Shown here piece by piece: positions 20,800 through 61,691 of a DNA stretch of 64,000 bases. This stretch comes from Octopus vulgaris (taxonomy: Eukaryota), in the NCBI GenBank assembly GCA_951406725.2, contig OX597816.1:125612001-125676000 (forward strand). The letters run 5' to 3'. Under the pieces are notes generated by a model. The model was not told where the DNA came from, did no database searches, and saw only the letters and a list, made by a program, of their open reading frames with translations. Every line of letters starts with the position of its first letter. Position 1 is the stretch's first letter. Made by a program: the position numbers and the translations under genes.

Positions 20800-21182
20800 T
20801 CTTTATATATAAAAGAGAGGTTGTGTGCTGTCTGTCTCCTACGATTTAGATTCCTAACTACTCCCACATTTTGCGGTGCAGTTTAACCAAAACCGGGTAT
20901 CTTATAGTCGTGATTCATATCGAGCACGCGTCTACGATGAGTCTACGATTTAAAAAAAAAATTACCACCAATTTTTCCCATTTTTAATGCCTTTTTGGCA
21001 TATATAAGGGAAGTAACTCTCTAAAAATTTATTATTAAATCTCAGAACGTAAAAAGCTACAGTAACACCCCCCTCCCTTTGTGGTTAGCCATATTGAGAT
21101 GGCTATTATACTTTACATCTCTAAAAATGCTTATATAGTCATTTCCCTTACACACCCGAGCAACGCCGCGCGGTACTGCTAG
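20800..21182 (+). mobile_element. Non-autonomous Helitron
   Basis: 5' TCTTTATATATAAAAG, 3' GC-rich subterminal hairpin (cccgagcaacgccgcgcgg) followed by CTAG; inserted between A and T with no TSD. Confidence 0.7.
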
Positions 21183-22849: not shown

Positions 22850-23552
22850 ATGAGTTTTCATGTTGGATGTATAAATGTGCGTGGCCTGATATCAAGCTGG
22901 AAACAAAGACATTTCCTTAACGTCATCGGGTCACATGGATTAGATGTTAGTGTTGCTAATGAAACTAGGTTGACCGGACCATGACACTTACTCCCGCTCC
23001 TGAATGGTTAAGAGAAAGTAATTCCTACATGCAATGCTGTGAGTTGGTCCTTATTAAGAAAAACATAGTTTCAGAGAAAAAGGTAACTTTTCTTGATCCA
23101 GAATGTAGGTTGGTCGTCCTTGACTTGACGTTCAACAATGGTAAGTCAATCAGGCTAGTTGCAGTTTATGCACTAGCTAGTAATGACGATAAAAGTGATT
23201 ATTTTCATGGCCTGGAGAAATGTATGGGTACGTCACACTCTCTAATGTTGATAGGAGACTTTAACAGAATCTGCAATACACGCGTAGATTGTGTTGACTC
23301 AAAACAAGATACGAGGGGTAACCCGTGCCTTAAGGATCTGCTACATCTCTTTCAGCTACCAGATCCCTACAGACTGGAATTCCTGAACGCGCCAGTGTGG
23401 TTATAGTCAAGAAGCGACGGGTCTTCCAGAACTTACGTAGATAGGTTATTCATTAGCATTAATGATAGAAACTTAGCTAAGCGTCCACAATTTCGTCATG
23501 TCAGCTATAGCGATCACAAACATGTGACCTGTAAGCTCAACATAGATAGGCT
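22850..23552 (+). pseudogene. Old Tx1/L1-clade LINE fragment: APE endonuclease domain
   Basis: GCINVRGL..NETRL..IRLVAVYA..IGDFN..YVDRLF..YSDHKHV motifs, with a frameshift and a stop. Confidence 0.85.
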
Positions 23553-24095: not shown

Positions 24096-24325
24096 ATATG
24101 TACATATATATATATATATATATAACAATAATAAATCTCTGAACGAGATATAAATAGTAACCGCTCGACAACGTAAGGGGGTATTAGCCATCTGAATGTG
24201 GCTAGCCACTGGGGGGGGGGGGGTGTTACTGATGCTTTTAGCCCCAGGCGATCAACGTCACCAGAAGGACTTTAGATACTATCTCAGTGCCCTTGTGTTA
24301 TTTGCAAAGGGAGGTCATCCTCCCT

Positions 24326-24404
24326 CGAAGACCCGAGTACTACATACGGACTATAGTTTCAAGGTAATTGCCTCTCGTCAACGCATGGTAAGCACCGGTC
24401 TTCG
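24326..24404 (-). ncRNA. Type I hammerhead ribozyme (U3.G8 variant), unit 1
   Basis: Minus strand: cgaagacc.gtgct.catgcg TTGACGA gagg caatta cctt GAAAC tata GTC cgtatg.agtac.ggtcttcg. Three-segment stem I, 4-bp stem II, palindromic stem III, GUC site. Confidence 0.8.
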
Positions 24405-24677
24405 ATGAAGGAGTCCCCTTGCAAATAATATATAACGTTTTTCACAGTAACCACTGTCACTGATGTAGAAAAACTGTCTGAAAGCAATAATAAATCTCTG
24501 AACGAGATATAAACAGTAACCGCTCGACAACGTAAGGGGTATTAGCCATCTGAATGTGGCTAGCCACTGGGGGGGTGTTACTGATGCTTTTAGCCCCAGG
24601 CGATCAACGTCACCAGAAGGACTTTAGACACTATCTCAGTGCCCTTGTGTTATTTGCAAAGGGAGGTCATCCTCCCT

Positions 24678-24756
24678 CGAAGACCCGAGTACTACATACG
24701 GACTATAGTTTAAAGGTAATTGCCTCTCGTCAACGCATGGTAAGCACCGGTCTTCG
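24678..24756 (-). ncRNA. Hammerhead copy with G12->U core mutation, unit 2
   Basis: Same as unit 1 except GAAA->TAAA (position 24712). Confidence 0.7.
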
Positions 24757-25029
24757 ATGAAGGAGTCCCCGAGCAAATAATATATAACGTTTTTCACAGT
24801 AACCACTGTCACTGATGTAGAAAAACTGTCTGAAAACAATAATAAATCTCTGAACGAGATATAAACAGTAACCGCTCGACAACGTAAGGGGTATTAGCCA
24901 TCTGAATGTGGCTAGCCACTGGGGGGGTGTTACTGATGCTTTTAGCCCCAGGCGATCAACGTCACCAGAAGGACTTTAGACACTATCTCAGTGCCCTTGT
25001 GTTATTTGCAAAGGGAGGTCATCCTCCCT

Positions 25030-25108
25030 CGAAGACCCGAGTACTACATACGGACTATAGTTTAAAGGTAATTGCCTCTCGTCAACGCATGGTAAGCACC
25101 GGTCTTCG
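25030..25108 (-). ncRNA. Hammerhead copy with G12->U core mutation, unit 3
   Basis: Same as unit 2 (position 25064). Confidence 0.7.
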
Positions 25109-25207
25109 ATGAAGGAGTCCCCGAGCAAATAATATATAACGTTTTTCACAGTAACCACTGTCACTGATGTAGAAAAACTGTCTGAAAACAATAATAAATC
25201 TCTGAAC

Positions 25208-25415
25208 GGGCTAAAAGCATCAGTAACCCCCACCCCCAGTGGCTAGCCACATTCAGATGGCTAATACCCCTTACGTTGTCGAGCGGTTACTGTTTATATC
25301 TCGTTCAGAGATTTATTATTGTTTTCAGACAGTTTTTCTACATCAGTGACAGTGGTTACTGTGAAAAACGTTATATATTATTTGCAGGGAGACTCCTTCA
25401 TCGAAGACCGGTGCT
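25208..25415 (+). repeat. Inverted partial copy of the 352-bp monomer
   Basis: Reverse complement of agcaccggtc...tgaaa/acaataa...tagccc. It crosses the unit boundary and is fused directly to the LINE ORF2. Confidence 0.9.
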
Positions 25416-28382
25416 CTGTTGTGCCTTATACGGATCACAAACTTGTAACGTGTGAGGTACATGTAGATAAATGCCATAGACAAGGTCCCGGGTACTGGAA
25501 GATGAACAAGTCTATTTTGACCTGTGAAGCTTTCCGTACTCGGATTAAGGAATTAGTACAGAGGGCATTATGTGGCACCATCATTAATAATAGATAGTGG
25601 CTCGCCCTCAAAAGAGCCATCCGTTTGGAGTCCATTAGATTTAGCAAACAGCTAAGTTTAGATAGGACTAGAATAGAGGGCGAGTTATTTAAGAACTTAG
25701 ACGAGGCTATGGAATCTGGCTGTGCATCCGGAGTGTTGGCAGCGAGAGCGGTATTGTACCGTCACCTCAACGCCAAGCACGAGGGGTGTAGAGTCAGAGC
25801 TAAGTTACGTGCAGGAAAACGAGAAAGTATTAACGTTGCCGGATGGGCCCGTCGTGAGGAGAGTCAGAAGGGCAAAAAGTCCTGTATTATGTCCTCAACT
25901 GACGAACAGGACCGCAAGATCTATGGGCAGGAGGAGATGCAGAAAGTCCTTCACCAGCATTTCGCACGGCTGTTTGGGGACGGTGGTCCGCTCGAGCGTG
26001 GGGAGACCTTAAAGGACTTCCTAGCCGGTGGGCCTCGGCTCTCGGCAGGTGAGGCGGAGTGCTGTGAAGGATCGATCTCTCCCGCGGAGGTAAGAGGGGT
26101 TATGGCCGAGTGCGCCGGGGAAAAGTCGCCGGGATTGGATGGTCTACCCTATGAATTTTATTGTTGTATGCCGGACTTGTTCGGGGACATACTGGCAAGC
26201 GTCTATGCAAACTGGCAACAGAATGGGAGGATTCCCAGCTCTGTGAGTCGGGGAGTTGTGACGCTGGTCCAGAAAGACCCGAGCAAGGGGGACAGTATTA
26301 GTAATTACAGGCTCATAACTCTACTTAATGTAGAGTTTAAGATTTTGGCCAAGGTGTTGGCAAAAAGGTTGACGGCTGTCGTGGAGAAACTTGTCGGGAA
26401 GGCACAGACATGTGCAATCCCAGGCAGGTCGATCCAGGATAATCTTCACCTTCTCCGCTACACTATAGATAGGGTCGGGAAATTAGACGGCAAAGGAGGG
26501 GCATTGGTCCATTTAGACCAAAGTAAAGCGTTTGATAGGGTAGACCATCGGTACTTGGCGGCGGTTCTCGAAACGGCTGGGCTGGGCCCTGGCTTCTGCG
26601 GGTGGATCTCAGCTATGTACAGCGGCATCAAGTCCACAGTCCAGATAAATGGTTACCTAACGGAGCCGTTTTCGATCAAGCGTTCAGTCCGTCAAGGGTG
26701 CCCCTTGTCCCCGCTCCTGTATGTTTTGGCTCTTGAGCCATTGCTGCGGAAGCTGGAGAAGTTGAGAGGCAACCCTAATGAAATCGGATGCGGTAAGTCT
26801 GTTTCTGCCTATGCGGGTGACGTCACCCTCATCGTGTCCAACGGAACACAGCTACCTCGGGTAGTAGGTGCTCTCCATAGATACGAAGCGGTGGCAGGGG
26901 CAAAAGTTAACAGGGACAAGTCCATCGGTTTGCGCCTCGGCACCTGGAGGAACAAGCCGATATCGTCCAGTGTTGTTGGACACTGGACGGATGGTCCTGT
27001 TAAATTGCTCGGAGTCTGGTTTGGTCCAGACTCCCAGACGGAGAAGAATTGGAGCGAGGTAACGAGCAAGGTGGATGCCATAGTACGGAAGTGGTCCGGA
27101 AGGCATCTTTCCTTGAAAGGGAGGGCGGAGGTGGCACAGATGTTTATAGCCTCTGTAGTCACCTACTGCCTGACCGTCGTGCCTTGCCCCGATTCGTGGT
27201 TAAACAAGTTGGAACGACTCCTTTTCCGCTTTTTGTGGAAAGGAGGAAAGCCACTTGTGAGACGCTCCGTGTGTTGCCAGGAACCGCTAAAGGGTGGACT
27301 GGGGATGCCTTTGCTAATGATGCGCAAGCATGCGTTAAGGCTGAGACACCTCTGGTGTTACCTGGAGGATGATAAGGTGTGGAGTTCGCTGGCAGAGGAA
27401 TTCTTCCCGCGACCGGCTTCTATGGAGGAATTTACACCCGGTCTCATTAAAGGACGTAAACTGACTTCATGGCAGAAGGAGTGCCGACAGGCACTCTGGC
27501 TGATCCACAAGATGGGTAAGGCCGGCAGCGGGAATACCACCTCGGTGTTCTATAAAGGGCTGGTAAAGGGAAAAAATGACGACGTCCTAGGAAGGGCTCT
27601 GGGGTTCGATGAGGATCAACTCTCCAACCTGTTTAAGAAGACTTTCAGGTCGGGGTATTTGGATAATTACCAAAAATCCCTGACCTGGCAGTGCTATAGG
27701 AATGCATTACCTGTTCGCGAGAAGTTATCCAGGCACGGAATGTCAGTGCCACCGACGTGTCCAAGATGTGGGTTGGACGATGAAACCGTTCAACACGCTT
27801 TTGTACAATGTCGGGAGCTGTCAGGCTTGATAAGTTACGTGGAACACGTGTTGTCGCATCTGGGACGAGTACAGCTGTCGGCTGGATCTATGATTAAGAT
27901 GATACCGCCAACTGGACTCTCAAAGGAAGGTAAGGCTTGTTTTTACTGTACGGTGACAGTATTGAAAGAGTGTGTATGGAGAACTAGAGTGGAAGGTCTA
28001 GTGAAAGGGTCCTTTATCTCTGGCCCCGGTTTGTTAAAACACTTCGGATATCATCTGAAGAGCAAGATGGGGTTGGAGAAGAGGAGCATGCCACAGAAAG
28101 AGTATATGGAACGTTGGAAGGATGTGATGAGAAAGGAAAAATCAGCTGCTGGGATTTATAGGCTGCCGGGTTCAAAATTGAAACTGGTACCTCCCATTAC
28201 CTTTCACTGTACAAAGAAAAGAAAACATACGCACTAAAAGTTCTCGTGATAAAGGCAAAAGTAAACCAAGGTTTCGTTTCAAGGTAAAGTAAGCCAAGTT
28301 TTCGTTCAAGTTACATAAAATTTTATTTTTGTAATTTTTATAATTTCATTCGAACTCGCATAGCATTTTTGTAATTGTTTAT
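25416..28382 (+). mobile_element. Young 5'-truncated Tx1/L1-clade LINE: end of EN, RT, CCHC zinc finger, 3' UTR
   Basis: YTDHKLV, GPGYWKMN, KSPGLDGLP, DQSKAFDRV, VRQGCPLSP, YAGD (YADD mutated), CPRC..ETVQHAFVQC. 870-aa ORF at 25625-28237, with one in-frame stop at 25595-25597. Confidence 0.93.
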
Positions 28383-31235: not shown

Positions 31236-31302
31236 GATATATATGTATATGTATATATATGTGTACATATATGTGTGTGTGTGTACGTATGTATGTATAT
31301 AT

Positions 31303-31790
31303 CGATTCACCCCTCAACTTCTCCCACCCTATACACACCGAGCTCTCCATCCACTACTACCAATTCCTCCGTCTGCGCAGGCTCTGCAGTGACACGCATG
31401 ACTTTGATACCCAGTCTGAACTCATGGCTCACCACTTCATCCTACGTGGATATCTCCTCACCACTATCCACACCGCCCTTGCCAGAGCACGTTCCGTGGA
31501 CCGTGCATCTGCTCTCTCTCTCTCGCCGCACTCACCCCGCCGTCATCCGTCTCCCGTTTACCCTCACCTACTACTCCTCCACGCTACCTCTCTAACGCAA
31601 TTCCAGTCCGACCCCTCCACTTCGGACATCTTCCCTAACCTACTCCTCCCCTCCATCAAACGAGCCCACAACCTACGTGACCTCCTGGTCCACAGTTTCT
31701 TCCCTAACTGACCTCACAGTCTGACTCCTCCCCCTGCTCCCGCCACGCTGCTGCACTTGCACTTACCTCTCCAACACCACCATCCTCACT
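31303..31790 (+). pseudogene. Penelope-like element RT C-terminus/linker fragment
   Basis: SHPIHTELSIHYYQFLRLRRLCSD...RGY...KRAHNLRDLLVHS followed by a Cys-rich knuckle remnant. Confidence 0.75.
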
Positions 31791-31794
31791 GGCA

Positions 31795-32163
31795 ATGGGC
31801 TACCTGTAGGTAATAATATATTAGGACTCATTATCTACCTTTGGAAACCCCCTTTCCCTGTACATAAAAGAAAATTGGAAAAGATTCCTAGACGACTGTT
31901 TCATACTCTGGAATAAAAACACAGATAAACTCCTGAAATTCAAAAGACAATTGAACAGCGTCAACCCAAACATACAGTTCACAATGGAGTACAACCAAAA
32001 GGAGCTTCTATTCTTAGATATACTAATTAAAAAAATAAACCTAAAAATAGAGACTGACATATTTTACAAAACCACAGACGCCAAACAATATCTACTATTT
32101 AATTCATGCCACCCAACACACACCAAAACAAACATTCCCTTCAACCTTGCAAGAAGGATATAA
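31795..32163 (+). pseudogene. Penelope-like element RT fragment (second subfamily)
   Basis: WKRFLDDCFILW, NSVNPNIQFTME, FLDILI, TDIFYKTTD..QYL.FNSCHP.HTK.NIPFNLARRI. Confidence 0.85.
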
Positions 32164-32368
32164 AGGAAAAAAATATAAACAAAAACCTAACCACTTGTAA
32201 CATTCTATTCCTTCTAAACCAAATCATGTTAAATTAATCAGGCCTAGTCATTCCCAACAGTTTTGATTATCTCCCTTATACCGGAAAATCCCTGATTACC
32301 TTTCCCTACCTGGAACTCCATATTTCACGACATAGCGAAGATATGATACGATATAGGAAAAGAAATTT

Positions 32369-32407
32369 GAGAAATTTGAAAAGAAATTACGAAACCGGTT
32401 ATTTCTC
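32369..32407 (+). ncRNA. Minimal hammerhead ribozyme (U3-A8) in PLE terminal region
   Basis: gagaaat TTGAAAA g aaatta c GAAAC cg GTT atttctc: 7-bp stem I, 1-bp stem II, palindromic ACCGGT stem III. Confidence 0.75.
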
Positions 32408-32525
32408 CAAAAACTATTTTACTATACGCAAAATTTTATAACATTTTTCTAACATAACGATTTAAATATATTCTTTAACCATATAACACAAGCCTTCTGT
32501 ACCTTTTTCTCTCTTTTTGTCTTTC

Positions 32526-32613
<88 letters not shown>

Positions 32614-32728
32614 AAATTCTTCGCTTGCATGTTTGAGTTTGTTGGCACTGTTAGTTACGAGCAGATCTTCGAAAGCGATGAGTTGCCGAGGGGGTATGCT
32701 CTTACTTTCAGTGTTTTCAAATCCAAAC

Positions 32729-32801
32729 CAAGGAGTTTCTGGGCTGATGATAGAAGTGTCGTGTTGACTAATCTTGAAACGTACGTTCTCAAATAACCTT
32801 T
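32729..32801 (+). ncRNA. Type I hammerhead ribozyme, 555-bp unit 1
   Basis: tggg CTGATGA t aga agt gtc gtgtt gac taa tct t GAAAC gtac GTT ctca. Extended stem I aag..gtt/aac.ctt. Confidence 0.75.
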
Positions 32802-33283
32802 GCATTTGATTTTTTGATGTCCTTACCCCAAACTTTCGTGAGTTGAGTTAAGCAAACACTATAAGAGAGAGATTTTCTTAAGTATTAGAAATAGCTTTAA
32901 AAAGTATTTTAGCTGCTATTTCTAATGAGTTCAGTATGCGGCAAAGTAATTTATTTTACTAAGCCCTTTTTTATATAATGTAATAATTTGAATTCGCCTT
33001 AAATGGTCCCTTTGCATGCTGAACACTTGGTGAGATTGATTAATAATTAATTAATTTTACCCTCAATTGTTGAAATTATAATTAATCTCCTCTAATTAAT
33101 GCTTCGGACTTTACCGAAATAAGCATAGTGTTTGCTAATTTTAACCCACGCTGGTGGAAGGGAGAACAGAAATTCTTCGCTTGCATGTTTGAGTTTGTTG
33201 GCACTGTTAGTTACGAGCAGATCTTCGAAAGCGATGAGTTGCCGAGGGGTATGCTCTTACTTTCAGTGTTTTCAAATCCAAAC

Positions 33284-33356
33284 CAAGGAGTTTCTGGGCT
33301 GATGATAGAAGTGTCGTGTTGACTAATCTTGAAACGTACGTTCTCAAATAACCTTT
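33284..33356 (+). ncRNA. Type I hammerhead ribozyme, 555-bp unit 2
   Basis: Identical motif; CTGATGA at 33299. Confidence 0.75.
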
Positions 33357-33836
33357 GCATTTGATTTTTGATGTCCTTACCCCAAACTTTCGTGAGTTGA
33401 GTTAAGCAAACACTATAAGAGAGATTTTCTTTAAGTATTAGAAATAGCTTTAAAAAGTATTTTAGCTGCTATTTCTAATGAGTTCAGTATGGGCAAAGTA
33501 ATTTATTTTACTAAGCCCTTTTTTATATAATGTAATAATTTGAATTCGCCTTAAATGGTCCCTTTGCATGCTGAACACTTGGTGAGATTGATTAATAATT
33601 AATTAATTTTACCCTCAATTGTTGAAATTATAATTAATCTCCTCTAATTAATGCTTCGGACTTTACCGAAATAAGCATAGTGTTTGCTAATTTTAACCCA
33701 CGCTGGTGGAAAGGGAGAACAGAAATTCTTCGCTTGCATGTTTGAGTTTGTTGGCACTGTTAGTTACGAGCAGATCTTCGAAAGCGATGAGTTGCCGAGG
33801 GGGTATGCTCTTACTTTCGTGTTTTCAAATCCAAAC

Positions 33837-33909
33837 CAAGGAGTTTCTGGGCTGATGATAGAAGTGTCGTGTTGACTAATCTTGAAACGTACGTTCTCAA
33901 ATAACCTTT
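33837..33909 (+). ncRNA. Type I hammerhead ribozyme, 555-bp unit 3
   Basis: Identical motif; CTGATGA at 33852. Confidence 0.75.
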
Positions 33910-34179
33910 GCATTTGATTTTTTGATGTCCTTACCCCCAAACTTTCGTGAGTTGAGTTAAGCAAACACTATAAGAGAGATTTTCTTTAGTATTAGAAATA
34001 GCTTTAAAAAGTATTTTAGCTGCTATTTCTAATGAGTTCAGTATGCGGCAAAGTAATTTATTTTACTAAGCCCTTTTTTATATAATGTAATAATTTGAAT
34101 TCGCCTTAAATGGTCCCTTTGCATGCTGAACACTTGGTGAAATTGATTAATAATTAATTAATTTTACCCTCAATTGTTG

Positions 34180-34237
<58 letters not shown>

Positions 34238-56578: not shown

Positions 56579-59121
56579 TAGTTTTATTTTTATAGCGTGC
56601 TTTCACTTCACTACCGAGCGCAGCTCTGTGTGCCTTGGGTATGTGCTGTGATTTGTTGTGATGCTCTGATGGTTATTGTATGGAAAGTGTTCTGCGTAGG
56701 ATGTGTGCAGTGCCTAGTAGTGCAATTTTCTGTATGTTATATGTGTTTGTAAGTCCTGGTGTTTTTGTTATGTATTTGTCTGAATATTTTTTTATCATGC
56801 CTAATGCACCTATTATGATAGGAATTGTTTCTGTTTTCAGGTTCCACATTCTAGTTACCTCTATTTCCAGGTCTTTGTATTTTGAGAATTTCTCCATTTC
56901 TTTTAGAGACACGTTGTCATCTGCCGGTATTGATACATCAATTAGAAAGCATTTTTTTTCTTCATGATCTCTGACAACTATATCTGGTCTGTTAGCCTTA
57001 ATTTCTCTATCTGTGTGTATCGGCATATCCCAGAGTATGGTTGCTTTCTCGTTTTCTGTGACCTTTTCTGGTGTGTGCCTATACCATCTTTTTTCTGTTG
57101 TTATTCCATAATGTTGGCATAGCTTCCAATGTATGTAGGTTCCAACTCTGTCATGTCTGTGAATATAATCCTTCTTAGCCAGGACTGGGCAGCTAGAGAT
57201 AATATGATTTATTGTTTCTTGTCCATCTCCACATATTCTGCAGTTACTTGTAATATTTCTTGTCATTACATGTTTTTGGTAATTTCTGGTGGGGAGGCTT
57301 TGGTCTTGTGCTGCAATTAAAAATCCCTCTGTTTCTGCTTTTTGTCCTGAGCTTCTCAACCATTGCTGGGATTTTTCTTTGTCTATTTCTTTTGCGTTTA
57401 GTTTAGTGCAGTATTTACCATGAAGGGGTTTTTCTTGCCATCGTTTTATCATGGCTCGTTGCTGTTCTATTTTTAGTTTGGATTTCATTTGTTTTATAGC
57501 TTTTGTTGTTTCTTCATCATCATCTTCTTCTTCTTTGTGTTTATTAGGTGGTATGATTTCTTGTTTGTATTTGTCAGCTTCCTTAAATACTGAGAACAGT
57601 TTTTTGTTTTGCTCGTGTTTTGCCGCTATCTGGATCAGTTTTCCTTCCTTCTGAAGTAGATATTTTTGCAGTCCTATGGTGGTTATTTTATAGTAGTTTT
57701 CCAGCTGTATAAGGCCTCTACCACCTTCTATACGTTGTATATATAGTATTTCTATGTCAGATTTTGGGTGATGCATCCTAGATCCTGTCAGTATTTTTCT
57801 TGTTTTCCTATCTATTTTGGACAGTTCATTTCGTGTCCAGTTAAGGATATTGTAGCTGTAACTTATAACTGGGACAGCTAAAGTGTTGATACCTATTATC
57901 TTGTTTTTAGCATTGAGCTCTGTTTTTAGTATTGATCTAACTCGTCTATAATATTCTTTTTTTATTTTTTCTTTCATTTGTGTGTGTTGTGTCTTATCTA
58001 GTTCATGGATTCCTAAGTATTTGTAAGTTTGGCTTTGGTCTAATTCTTTTATTTCATTGGTTTTATCTAGTGTGATGTTGTTACTCTTAACTAGTTTTCC
58101 TCTTTTCATGGTTACTTTGGCGCATTTTTCTAATCCAAATTTCATATCTATTTCTTTGGTAAATCCATGAACTGTCTTTAATAGTGTTTCCAGCTGTTTG
58201 TCATTTGCAGCGTATAGTTTTAGGTCATCCATATATAAAAGGTGGCTGATCGTTTTGCCGTAACATTTATATCCGCATCCAATTCTATTTAGCATATCAG
58301 ATAGAGGTGACAGTGCCAAGCAGAAAAGGAGTGGAGAGAGCGTGTCTCCCTGGAATATTCCTCTTCTAATGGGGATGTCTTTGGTTTTCATGAGTCCCTC
58401 TTTTGTTTGGAGGTGTAGGACTGTTTGCCATTTATTCATAGAGTGCTCTATGAATTTTATGATTGTTGGTGCTACTTTGTTAATGGCTAGTGTTTCGAGG
58501 ATCCATGTGTGGGGGATGCTATCAAACGCCTTCTTGTAGTCAATCCAGGCCATACTGAGGCCTTTCTTCTTTCTGTGGCTGTCTTCAGTTACGGCTTTAT
58601 TAATCATTAGTTGATCTTTACAGCCATATGAGCCCTTGCGGCATCCTTTCTGCTCTTCTGGGAGCAGTTTGTTTTCGTCCAGTGCGATATCACTGCAGTG
58701 AATGCCTTGGTCTGTAGTTTTCTGGTTTTGTTGTTTCATTTGATTTGGGAATTAAGATGGTTTTTCCCCTTCGTGAGCCATTCAGGCATTGTCTCTGGCT
58801 CTGCTAGTATGCTGTTAAAGTTTTCAGCCAGCTTTTTGTGCATTTCTGTTAGATATTTCAACCAGAAGTTGGGGATCTTGTCATGCCCAGGTGCCTTCCA
58901 GTTGCTTAGTTTTTGCAGTGCCTGGGTGACCTCTTCAGTTGTTATGGGGGTCCAAAGTTGTTCAGATGCCGAGTTTGTTATTTTCATACTCCTTTTTTTT
59001 GCTGTTCGTTCGCCGACCATATTTCTTTCCAGAATTCTTCCAATTCTTCTGCCGTTGGTGCTGCAGTGACTTCTATTTTATTTTTGCCCAGTTCTTGGTA
59101 GAACTTTTTGGGGTCGGAGTT
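56575..59121 (-). mobile_element. R4/Dong-clade LINE (RT plus restriction-like endonuclease), 5'-truncated, in (TAA)n
   Basis: WKAPGHD, WIDYKKAFDS, GIFQGDTLSP, YMDD, YKYLG, CRIC..ETINHIISSC, RHD, RPDIVV..IDVSIP. (TAA)n on both sides; frameshifts at 58680-58770. Confidence 0.92.
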
Positions 59122-60607: not shown

Positions 60608-61691
60608 TTAGGTCGTCAATTATGAAATTTGTAGTAAGGTATATGGTAAACTTTGACAGCTATTTATTTTGCGATAATCTTTATTTTTTGTTAGAAAGCT
60701 GACACATATATTTCTTTATTCTAACTCATTTTGTGGCTTATAAAGTATTTATAAATCGTTTTTTTTTTTTTTACTGTTTTTGTTTAGAGATGGACAAGTC
60801 GGAAATTCGAAAATTCATACATTTTTGAAATATCAGTTCTTTCTTGGAACTACAGCATCACAGACATCTCGGAATATTAATGGAGTATTTCATTCTAATG
60901 TTATTATACAGCAGACAGCATCAGATTGGTTTGCAAAATTTTGTTCTGGAAACATTGACCTCACAAATGAGCAACGCGGTCGACCAGAAATAAAGGTGGA
61001 TAATGACGACAGAATCATTTTTTAATCGAAATGTAATATGTGATGAGAAATGGATTCAATACAGGCGTAAACGTTTATCACAATGGCTGGACAAAGACGA
61101 GCCACCAAAACACAATCCAAAATGCAAAATTCATCAAAAGAAGCTGATTGTGTGTGTTTGGTGGTCTCGTGCAAGTGTGATCCATTATGATTTCATTAAA
61201 CCTGCCTCATCAATCACGACCAAAGTATGCTGCAGCCAACTGGACCAAATGATGCAGAAACCTATCAAAAACCAGCTTAGATTAATCAACAAATCCACTC
61301 CTATTTTAATGCAAGACAACGCCGGACCACACATCGCAAAAATGACATTGGCGAAACTACAGGAGTTGGAGTCGGAGTTGGAGTTAAAAGTTCTCCATCA
61401 TCCACCATACTCAACTGATCTTGCCCACACTGACTATCACTTCTTCCAGAATTTGGATAAATTTTGATAGAAAAAAAATAATTCCGACGATGCTGTAAAA
61501 CAGGCCTTCCAAAATTTTAATGACTCCAGATTGCCAGGCTTTTAGAGCTCCGCGCTGGACAAGCTACCGCTGAAATGGCAAAGATGTATTGACAGTATGG
61601 GTACATAGTTTAATAAATAAAACTATTCCTTTTATTTATAAAACATTAGCAAACTTTTTCTTTTCTACAAATTTCATACTTGATGACCTAA
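60608..61691 (+). mobile_element. mariner transposon with both TIRs, internally deleted transposase
   Basis: TA-flanked TIRs ttaggtcgtcaattatgaaatttgtag / ctacaaatttcatacttgatgacctaa; DEKW, QDNAGPH, HPPYSTDLAHTDYHFF. Confidence 0.92.

What the first reader, a model, noticed from the sequence alone, without database searches (positions are those of the whole stretch)
24125..25415. 352-bp tandem monomers with a hammerhead ribozyme motif: candidate cephalopod retrozyme (circular RNA)
Seen: three exact head-to-tail units start at a (TA)n tract. Each has a minus-strand type I HHR fold (6-bp stem I extended by gtgct/agtac and cgaagacc/ggtcttcg, TTGACGA, gagg/cctt, GAAAC-tata-GUC). The rest of the unit is strongly self-complementary (ttatttgcaa.ggga/tccc.ttgcaaataa; agggagg/cctccct; tagcca/tggcta). 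Established: metazoan non-LTR retrozymes are tandem monomers of a few hundred nucleotides with type I HHRs that yield circular RNAs, and are thought to use Penelope-like machinery. Inference: this array is a rolling-circle cDNA of a 352-nt circRNA. I cannot tell whether the family is already catalogued.
Basis: partly seen in the sequence, partly recalled or inferred. Interest (0 to 1): 0.85.

Follow-up and report, generated by a model that had tools for sequence, protein, structure and literature searches.

The report
Hammerhead retrozyme hit by start-site LINE
This is one copy of a dispersed 352-base repeat with a predicted self-cutting RNA, likely copied by a Penelope-type enzyme; it carries the same upstream motif as U1 and U2 RNA genes, and a second jumping gene repeatedly lands at its predicted start site and at the start of U2 genes, likely to borrow their promoter.

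Summary
The hammerhead and the 352-bp period are real. The family is dispersed: 229 exact hammerhead cores and 1,326 tail matches. The units are not three exact copies. Units 2 and 3 are identical and share three private changes, one of which destroys G12, so they are likely a later local duplication, not rolling-circle evidence. (1) An inverted arm and a 44-nt tail on one end only, the Penelope footprint (22 of 28 two-armed insertions). (2) An ATCAGT motif 57-60 nt before a conserved ATC start, in the register found at U1 and U2 genes: a likely snRNA-type promoter. (3) The adjoining LINE is site-specific: of 48 3' ends, 35 sit at this start in hammerhead repeats and 5 at U2 +1. Covariation supports the fold and a palindromic stem III, hence likely dimeric cleavage. 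Cleavage, expression and circles are untested. The scan noted this family and the LINE targeting before on other DNA of this genome. The retrozyme is a new member of a known kind; the start-site-targeting LINE makes the system a new variant.

The parts
24104..24124 (.). (TA)n tract, the insertion target at the tailed end
   Evidence: sequence; TA or AT-rich flanks at most family insertions
24126..24169 (-). 44-nt tail, the RNA-3' end present on one arm only
   Evidence: 22 of 28 two-armed insertions have one end here and the other at monomer position 42-49
24126..24484 (-). unit 1 (359 bp, longer G run), intact hammerhead core
24325..24404 (-). type I hammerhead with extended stem I and palindromic stem III (ACUAUAGU); predicted cut 24349/24348
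   Evidence: fold; covariation over 19 sequences
24406..24464 (-). candidate snRNA-type promoter of unit 1: ATCAGT at 24464-24459, predicted +1 (ATCG) at 24406; repeated at 24816/24758 and 25168/25110
   Evidence: same motif and spacing upstream of U1 and U2 genes; promoter function inferred
24485..24836 (-). unit 2 (352 bp); G12 to U at 24712, predicted inactive
24837..25188 (-). unit 3, identical to unit 2; likely a local duplication after insertion
   Evidence: 0 differences; three shared private changes
25189..25208 (-). 5'-truncated start of a fourth unit, up to the arm junction
25208..25415 (+). inverted arm (monomer positions about 120 to 1, then 352 to 259), with ATCAGT at 25342 and predicted +1 at 25400; interrupted by the LINE 16 nt after +1
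25416..28380 (+). 5'-truncated L1/Tx1-like LINE (RVT_1 and zf-RVT), 95.8% identical to a full-length copy. Its last ~55 nt and the rest of the retrozyme arm are missing
   Evidence: junction matches the family's target site

Best explanation
This is one two-armed insertion of a dispersed 352-bp hammerhead repeat (a non-LTR retrozyme), likely copied by a Penelope-like reverse transcriptase and likely transcribed from its own U1/U2-type promoter, and its inverted arm is interrupted at the predicted start site by a LINE family that inserts there and at +1 of U2 genes. Steps. (1) Each unit has ATCAGT about 58 nt before an ATCG (shown); this acts as a proximal sequence element, and transcription starts at ATCG and reads through into the next unit (inferred). 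(2) The hammerhead cuts 58 nt after +1 (predicted). Its 2-bp stem III is unstable alone and palindromic, so two hammerheads of one transcript pair and cut as a dimer (inferred from fold, covariation and PMC4209133), releasing a 352-nt monomer that may be ligated into a circle (known for mussel, coral and axolotl; untested here). (3) A GIY-YIG Penelope-like element nicks AT-rich DNA, and both ends of the break prime cDNA at two fixed points 44 nt apart, giving a tailed arm and an inverted tailless arm (anatomy shown, enzyme inferred). (4) After insertion, unit 2 acquired G12U and was duplicated (inferred). (5) The LINE inserted by target-primed reverse transcription with a duplication of about 20 bp covering +1 to about +16 (shown for the family). 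Full-length copies thereby sit behind the promoter and are transcribed from it (inferred). This copy is 5'-truncated and lost its 3' end in a later deletion.
For: Family: 229 exact cores, control 0; 1,326 tail matches, control 0; units about 96% identical to the majority letter. Fold: 89% of 508 cells paired, 54 two-sided changes, 0 of 500 shuffles reach either value, slid controls 22-47%; both inner palindrome pairs change on both sides. Monomeric stem III costs +1.9 kcal/mol with pair probability 0.0, while the palindrome duplex gives -7.2. Anatomy: 65 of 71 outer ends at two positions, 22 of 28 two-armed insertions with one tail; 9-15 bp duplications in 6 of 9 insertions inspected, read by eye. 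An RT-GIY-YIG element at L173 has the same layout, and L009 joins a tailed retrozyme arm to a tailless arm of that element family within one AT-rich site. Promoter: ATCAGT at -54 to -64 in 32 of 38 U1 and 33 of 43 U2 upstream sequences, 0 of 14 U6; at -56 to -61 in 39 of 48 retrozyme starts; kept at -57 to -60 in four diverged subfamilies. LINE: 35 of 48 3' ends at the hammerhead-repeat start, 5 at U2 +1, 4 followed by another element's 5' end, 4 elsewhere (U2 by Rfam). Duplications of about 17-22 bp. Four copies in U2 genes begin with a retrozyme-like +1 to +14 sequence, as expected if their RNA started at a retrozyme's ATCG.
Against: No cleavage, promoter or RNA data. The core is UUGACGA (C3U) and stem II closes with G-U here and is unpaired at that position in 10 of 19 sequences, so cleavage may be weak; only 1 of 9 Xenopus retrozyme dimers cleaved in vitro (10.64898/2026.07.22.740005). 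Two of the five shuffle measures were not exceeded (36/500 and 475/500), and the sequences are related, which inflates that control. No Penelope-like element shares sequence with the monomer, so the partner rests on anatomy and one chimera. One subfamily (E) lacks exact ATCAGT in both upstreams seen. A TATA-like run at about -28 leaves Pol III open, and the U6 set probably holds many pseudogenes. LINE loci are not all independent (L104/L105 one event; four U2 hits in one cluster; L197/L314 near-identical), and target labels were assigned by eye.
Confidence: 0.78

Rival explanations
1. One reading: the three units were laid down in one rolling-circle pass over a 352-nt circular RNA.
For: Head-to-tail units. 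Arms of one insertion are more alike than arms of different insertions (pooled 3.2-3.8% against 5.9%). 7 of 65 arms cross two or more cleavage sites, and 5' ends do not pile up at the cut (1, expected 1.7) or at +1 (2, expected 1.7).
Against: Units 2 and 3 share three rare changes absent from unit 1, including the inactivating G12U; the inverted arm does not share the two it covers. One template would give units that start equal and then diverge independently.
Confidence: 0.1
2. The family is copied from linear, uncut read-through multimers, as Penelope partial tandems are; circles are absent or incidental.
For: Arms cross cleavage sites without a scar (44 of 65). Arrays of 3 or more units exist as possible sources. 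A dimer-dependent C3U hammerhead may cut slowly.
Against: No pile-up of 5' ends at +1. Circles are the main form in three other animals (PMC7229834).
Confidence: 0.4
3. The LINE's targeting is endonuclease sequence preference alone; the shared promoter motif is not read by the LINE.
For: Targets share TTYATC and often GG at +11/+12. None of 48 3' ends of this family is at U1, although U1 has the same upstream motif. Target choice in such elements is mainly set by the endonuclease (PMC4494074).
Against: The 15-nt motif occurs 4,886 times, and only about a quarter of the first 100 listed look like retrozyme starts (by eye), yet none of the 4 off-target ends matches it. Targets as different as U2 and subfamilies E and F are all hit at the same register. 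A different LINE-like tail sits at +1 of one U1 gene and another at +1 of a U2 gene.
Confidence: 0.5
4. The LINE-retrozyme junction is a template switch: the LINE's enzyme copies the retrozyme.
For: The inverted arm is co-oriented with the LINE and joined to its truncated 5' end without a spacer.
Against: Other copies have retrozyme on both sides with a target duplication at this position. Of 43 retrozyme insertions sampled, only this one touches the LINE, and their ends are Penelope-like.
Confidence: 0.05
5. The units are terminal repeats of an autonomous Penelope-like element not yet found, left by 5' truncation.
For: Xenopus retrozymes match Penelope terminal repeats. Only the best candidates were scored in my genome searches.
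Against: No copy among about 60 sampled insertions continues into a co-oriented Penelope ORF except the L009 chimera. Arms wrap from unit end to unit start. 30 GIY-YIG loci and 5 long elements show no match to the monomer.
Confidence: 0.12

Closest known systems
Metazoan non-LTR retrozymes (Cervera and de la Pena 2020, PMC7229834: mussel 350-390 bp, axolotl 331/353, coral 220-240; Li et al. 2026, 10.64898/2026.07.22.740005)
   Same: Non-coding tandem units of about 350 bp, under 50% GC (45%), one type I hammerhead each, dispersed, target duplications longer than 4 bp, short palindromic stem III as in amphibians.
   Different: Mostly 1-3 unit two-armed insertions with fixed ends, not long arrays. 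C3U core. Circles and cleavage untested. No cephalopod family in the text I could read; the supplements were unreadable or closed.
Endonuclease-bearing Penelope-like element insertions (Craig et al. 2021, 10.1101/2021.04.23.441226; hammerheads in pLTRs, PMC4209133)
   Same: Partial tandems, inverted 5'-truncated copy, tail on one end only, microsatellite bias, palindromic stem III.
   Different: No ORF; tail of 44 nt against 30-40; no sequence match to the two Penelope-like families examined.
Newt satellite 2 (Coats et al. 1994, seen only as cited in PMC2220036)
   Same: Hammerhead tandem repeat with an internal snRNA-type promoter.
   Different: There the promoter was shown by experiment; here it is inferred from motif register and LINE 5' ends. 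Different phylum.
Target-specific Tx1-clade LINEs: Keno (U2), Tx1L (Tx1D), Tx1-Mar (Mariner-N4) (PMC4494074, PMC4640811)
   Same: APE endonuclease LINE with a fixed site in a multicopy gene or in another mobile element, tandem insertions, long target duplication.
   Different: Keno and Utopia are followed by U2 from nucleotide 39; this family is followed by U2 from +1. One young subfamily uses both U2 and several retrozyme subfamilies. A figure legend in PMC4494074 lists 'satellites' as a Tx1 target; I could not see which.

Membership tests
non-LTR retrozyme | tandem non-coding units of 150-450 bp, GC under 50% | tested here: met
   352 bp, GC 0.45, no ORF of 120 aa or more in the array
non-LTR retrozyme | type I hammerhead in each unit | tested here: met
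   family: 42 of 44 cores intact (sample biased to close copies), G12 kept in 74 of 76. At this locus only unit 1 of 3 is intact
non-LTR retrozyme | at least two consecutive intact hammerheads (Li et al. 'active' criterion) | tested here: not met
   not met at this locus (G12U in units 2 and 3); met at other loci such as L005, L011
non-LTR retrozyme | dispersed copies with target duplications over 4 bp, no LTR/PBS/PPT | tested here: met
   PBS and PPT not searched for
non-LTR retrozyme | self-cleavage in vitro | not testable with these tools
   needs transcription assay
non-LTR retrozyme | monomer-length linear and circular RNA in vivo | not testable with these tools
   no run on record as RNA; only contigs
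type I hammerhead | CUGANGA / GAAA / NUH core with stems I-III | tested here: met
   met with a C3U variant; other subfamilies have CUGA; pairing 95% stem I, 81% stem II, 97% stem III. No Rfam hit
Penelope-like insertion | inverted 5'-truncated arm, one-sided tail, AT or microsatellite target | tested here: met
   22 of 28 two-armed insertions
autonomous Penelope-like element | RT plus GIY-YIG ORF | tested here: not met
   no ORF; no homology to the two families examined
Pol II snRNA-type promoter | upstream element about 60 bp before +1 shared with U1/U2 | tested here: met
   (motif and spacing only)
Pol II snRNA-type promoter | SNAPc binding and initiation at +1 | not testable with these tools
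   indirect only: LINE copies in U2 begin with retrozyme-like +1 sequence
Tx1 clade (adjacent LINE) | APE endonuclease, RT, zf-RVT; ORF1 zinc knuckle | tested here: met
   (knuckle just under the Pfam cut-off); shared with the L1 clade
Tx1 clade (adjacent LINE) | RT phylogeny with named Tx1 families | not tested
   no named Tx1 reference among the 120 homologues listed; 'Tx1-like' is recalled from domain layout
Keno | 3' flank begins at U2 nucleotide 39 | tested here: not met
   3' flank begins at U2 +1 against nucleotide 39

The most novel reading that the evidence does not exclude
A three-tier parasite system built on the snRNA promoter. A ribozyme RNA that captured a U1/U2-type promoter is copied in trans by a Penelope-like enzyme, which one chimeric insertion (L009) names. 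A LINE lineage finds its site through the promoter-bound snRNA machinery plus a short sequence, and moves between U2 genes and more than a thousand retrozyme units that serve as spare promoters.
Probability: 0.3. Interest if true: 0.82.

Novelty: new variant of a known kind. Interest (0 to 1): 0.6.

Why it matters
How animal retrozymes are transcribed and which enzyme copies them are open questions; the papers read here only propose Penelope-like elements. This family gives testable answers: a defined promoter motif and start site, two fixed priming points, and a candidate partner from a chimeric insertion. The LINE adds a target not found in my searches: +1 of U2 genes and the matching position of a ribozyme repeat. 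If promoter-bound factors guide it, that is a route to site choice comparable to tRNA-gene targeting (recalled), and it would explain how an snRNA-targeting LINE persists despite few snRNA genes, a puzzle raised in PMC4640811.

Tried and rejected
Rfam scans of the array found no hammerhead, nor did scans of 18 and 5 related loci at gathering score. RNA: no RNA holder listed. Four runs guessed to be RNA hold only contigs and show nothing on expression, ends or circles; no silent control stretch was laid. Laying the LINE-retrozyme junction on four runs with other organism codes showed retrozyme-like contigs in all four and LINE 3' sequence in two, but no listed contig had 31 letters on both sides of the junction, so conservation of targeting elsewhere is not shown. 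Partner search: a Pfam family I asked for is not in the library. The abundant 781-aa RT-GIY-YIG family has no blastn match to the monomer and no terminal hammerhead by my scan. HHR hits 3.6 kb, 1.6 kb and 1.4 kb apart on contig 1 were duplications, not terminal repeats around an ORF. 5' ends of arms show no pile-up at the cut or at +1. The tree of 37 LINE pieces (7 of 44 loci left out as short, 1 dropped, 2 added) is mostly unresolved and does not show co-evolution with target subfamily. I considered that the tail end is a Pol III terminator (a T4 run lies there), but 0 of 14 U6 upstreams share the motif and arms read through it; not resolved. A second ATCAGT lies about 57 nt before the tailless end, but its spacer is a variable C run; treated as likely chance. 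No match to the U1/U2 3'-flank motif was found in the monomer. Whether unit 3 is an assembly artefact could not be tested.

Full report
Observation. The array runs 24124-25208 with period 352 and 3.1 copies from a (TA)n tract. Unit 1 (24126-24484, 359 bp) differs from unit 2 at 13 columns; units 2 and 3 are identical. Against the family majority, unit 1 has two private changes, and units 2 and 3 share three changes, each at 3% in the family. One is G12 to U in the hammerhead GAAA (24712, 25064); G12 is the general base (established knowledge), so those units are predicted dead. The simplest history is an insertion of about two units, decay, then local duplication of unit 2, so the identical units do not show rolling-circle synthesis. 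25208-25415 is an inverted copy, followed directly by a LINE.

Family. The 2.8-Gb genome gave 2,811 candidates, of which 40 were scored, with full-length matches at 90-97% on many contigs. There are 229 exact 33-nt hammerhead cores and 1,326 matches to a 30-nt tail pattern at up to one mismatch, with 0 in both reversed controls. These are lower bounds for one subfamily. Of 44 hammerheads in 24 close loci, 42 keep both core halves; the 2 exceptions are in this window. The host is likely an octopod, inferred from the LINE's best named relative, Argonauta hians at 63%.

Ribozyme. Rfam gives no hammerhead hit. I aligned unit 1 with 18 hammerhead regions from five subfamilies, picked from 28 found downstream of LINE ends by leaving out near-duplicates, degenerate copies and the most distant subfamily. 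For the named structure, 89% of 508 cells pair and 54 cells change on both sides; 0 of 500 shuffles reach these or the covariation score, while two other measures are not exceeded (36/500, 475/500); slid controls pair 22-47%. Relatedness inflates the shuffle control. Stem III is 2 bp with a palindromic loop whose two inner pairs both change on both sides (UAUA, UGCA, UCGA, CCGG, UA). Folded alone it costs 1.9 kcal/mol; the 8-nt palindrome pairs with itself at -7.2. PMC4209133 (passages) describes this design as a dimeric hammerhead. C3U and a weak first pair of stem II may lower activity.

Insertion anatomy. In 43 insertions (30 best hits and 30 core hits, duplicates removed; biased to long, intact copies), 65 of 71 outer RNA-3' ends fall at monomer positions 1-4 or 42-49. 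Of 28 two-armed insertions, 22 have one end of each kind. That is the Penelope layout in Craig et al. (passages): partial tandem, inverted 5'-truncated copy, 30-40 bp tail on one end, microsatellite bias. Target duplications of 9-15 bp are visible in 6 of 9 insertions inspected. An RT-GIY-YIG element at L173 has the same two-armed layout with a tail of about 35 nt. At L009 a tailed retrozyme arm is joined to a tailless, 5'-truncated arm of that family (86% identical) between AT-rich flanks: one case, best read as one integration using two RNAs. Of 65 arms starting at a fixed end, 44 cross a cleavage site and 7 cross two or more, with no pile-up of 5' ends at the cut or at +1. The template was therefore a circle or an uncut multimer; the genome does not say which.

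The LINE. Window 25416-28380 is 95.8% identical to a 5.5-kb element at L095 with APE endonuclease, RT and zf-RVT. That element lies inside a retrozyme unit with a duplication of monomer positions 277-258, and the window's truncated copy joins at 259, an independent insertion at the same site. I searched with LINE 3' sequence only and read all 48 3' ends outside this window: 35 are followed by a hammerhead repeat starting at ATC (six subfamilies; those that align are 69-96% identical to the monomer, the two most distant mostly do not), 5 by U2 from +1, 4 by another element's 5' end (two of these with retrozyme upstream), and 4 by other DNA (labels by eye; U2 by Rfam). Some are not independent: L104/L105 are two arms of one event at 99.6%, four U2 hits share a cluster, and L197/L314 are near-identical. 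Intact copies show duplications of about 17-22 bp. The window copy groups with the young set that includes retrozyme and U2 insertions, though the tree is poorly resolved. Its last ~55 nt and the rest of the arm are absent from the window, likely by deletion.

Promoter. Because U2 is hit at +1, I asked whether the retrozyme's ATCG is a start site. ATCAGT lies at -54 to -64 in 32 of 38 U1 upstream sequences (40 of 42 matches fetched, one duplicate, one not located) and 33 of 43 U2 upstream sequences; misses include LINE-occupied genes and likely pseudogenes. It is in 0 of 14 U6 upstreams located among 20 loci. It lies at -56 to -61 in 39 of 48 retrozyme starts, the others being cut by junctions, and at -57 to -60 in subfamilies B, C, D and F, but not exactly in E. 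Chance in a 6-nt band is about 0.002. Four LINE copies in U2 genes begin, after the U2 duplication, with a retrozyme-like +1 to +14 sequence, as expected if their RNA started at a retrozyme's ATCG. Newt satellite 2 has an snRNA-type promoter (Coats 1994, seen only as cited in PMC2220036), so this part has precedent. On targeting, the motif TTYATCGNNNNYYGG occurs 4,886 times and about a quarter of the first 100 look like retrozyme starts (by eye), so it does not suffice. But this family never hits U1 in 48 ends, so the upstream motif does not suffice either. One U1 gene and one U2 gene carry other LINE-like tails at +1.

Literature seen. 10.64898/2026.07.22.740005: parts 1-3 of 5, the main text; 35 species, no mollusc named, supplements closed. 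PMC7229834: passages and Discussion; its supplement was unreadable and may list cephalopods. PMC4640811: passages and section 6; U2 downstream of Utopia, and so of Keno, starts at nucleotide 39. PMC4494074: passages, figure and supplements not seen. PMC4209133: passages and a partial supplement search with no octopus hit. PMC6962438: passages, 235 hammerhead loci in giant squid. PMC10886601: passages, not relevant. Searches: retrozyme+hammerhead+octopus 3 papers, octopus+Penelope+hammerhead 5, retrozyme+Tx1+target 0, Tx1+U2 snRNA+Keno+satellite 2, Tx1 target-specific 5. None that I read describes this family or this target. Repbase and Dfam were not available, and subscription papers are missing from the library.

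Earlier notes of this scan, read after my own tests of targeting and promoter, describe the same family and the same LINE behaviour at other places in this genome. They are not independent support. One prompted the U1 check, and two bear on the 5'-end test.

Verdict. The retrozyme is real and a new member of a known kind; this copy is largely dead. The system around it, an snRNA-type promoter motif plus a LINE that inserts at the start of both retrozymes and U2 genes, is a new variant as far as I could search. Interest 0.6.

Noticed in passing
window 32612-34182 (+): A second hammerhead-bearing tandem array, period about 555 bp, 2.8 units between (TA)n tracts, with CTGATGA...GAAA and a palindromic stem III (CGTACG) at about 32744, 33299, 33852. 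A related two-armed copy lies in L016.
   Followed up: partly
window 31300-32525: Fragments of Penelope-like elements; 31793-32161 is 86% identical to the RT-GIY-YIG family at L173.
   Followed up: partly
L009:1502-2940 (G000:C18:60215366 onward): Chimeric two-armed insertion: tailed retrozyme arm joined to a tailless 5'-truncated Penelope-like arm; a candidate direct trace of the partner enzyme.
   Followed up: partly
L094/L095 (G000:C4:124124757-124137244): A 12.5-kb inverted structure with the same full-length LINE insertion in both retrozyme arms (99.6% identical); outer flanks are not duplicated. A LINE-carrying retrozyme may have been copied whole, though both ends are of the tailless kind.
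   Followed up: partly
L286:401 and L268/L315: LINE-like 3' tails of other families directly before +1 of a U1 gene and a U2 gene.
   Followed up: partly
L197, L198, L200, L311-L314: A distant hammerhead repeat subfamily (CCGAUGA or CUGAUGA core, 3-bp stem III) that keeps ATCAGT at -57 and is hit by diverged LINE copies.
   Followed up: partly
window 21052-21116 (-): 75% match to monomer positions 48-107, likely an old fragment of a related subfamily.
   Followed up: no
window 22969-23406 (+), 56673-58751 (-), 60994-61467 (+): An endonuclease-like LINE fragment, a 692-aa RT frame, and a mariner-like transposase fragment, by eye from ORF translations.
   Followed up: no
L096-L100: Abundant young RT-GIY-YIG family with intact 781-aa frames and an overlapping upstream ORF; terminal region rich in repeated GATTGG and TGACGTC motifs; no hammerhead by my scan.
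   Followed up: partly
L272, L273, L280: U1 genes with ATCATC in place of ATCAGT near the same position, possibly a variant promoter class.
   Followed up: no
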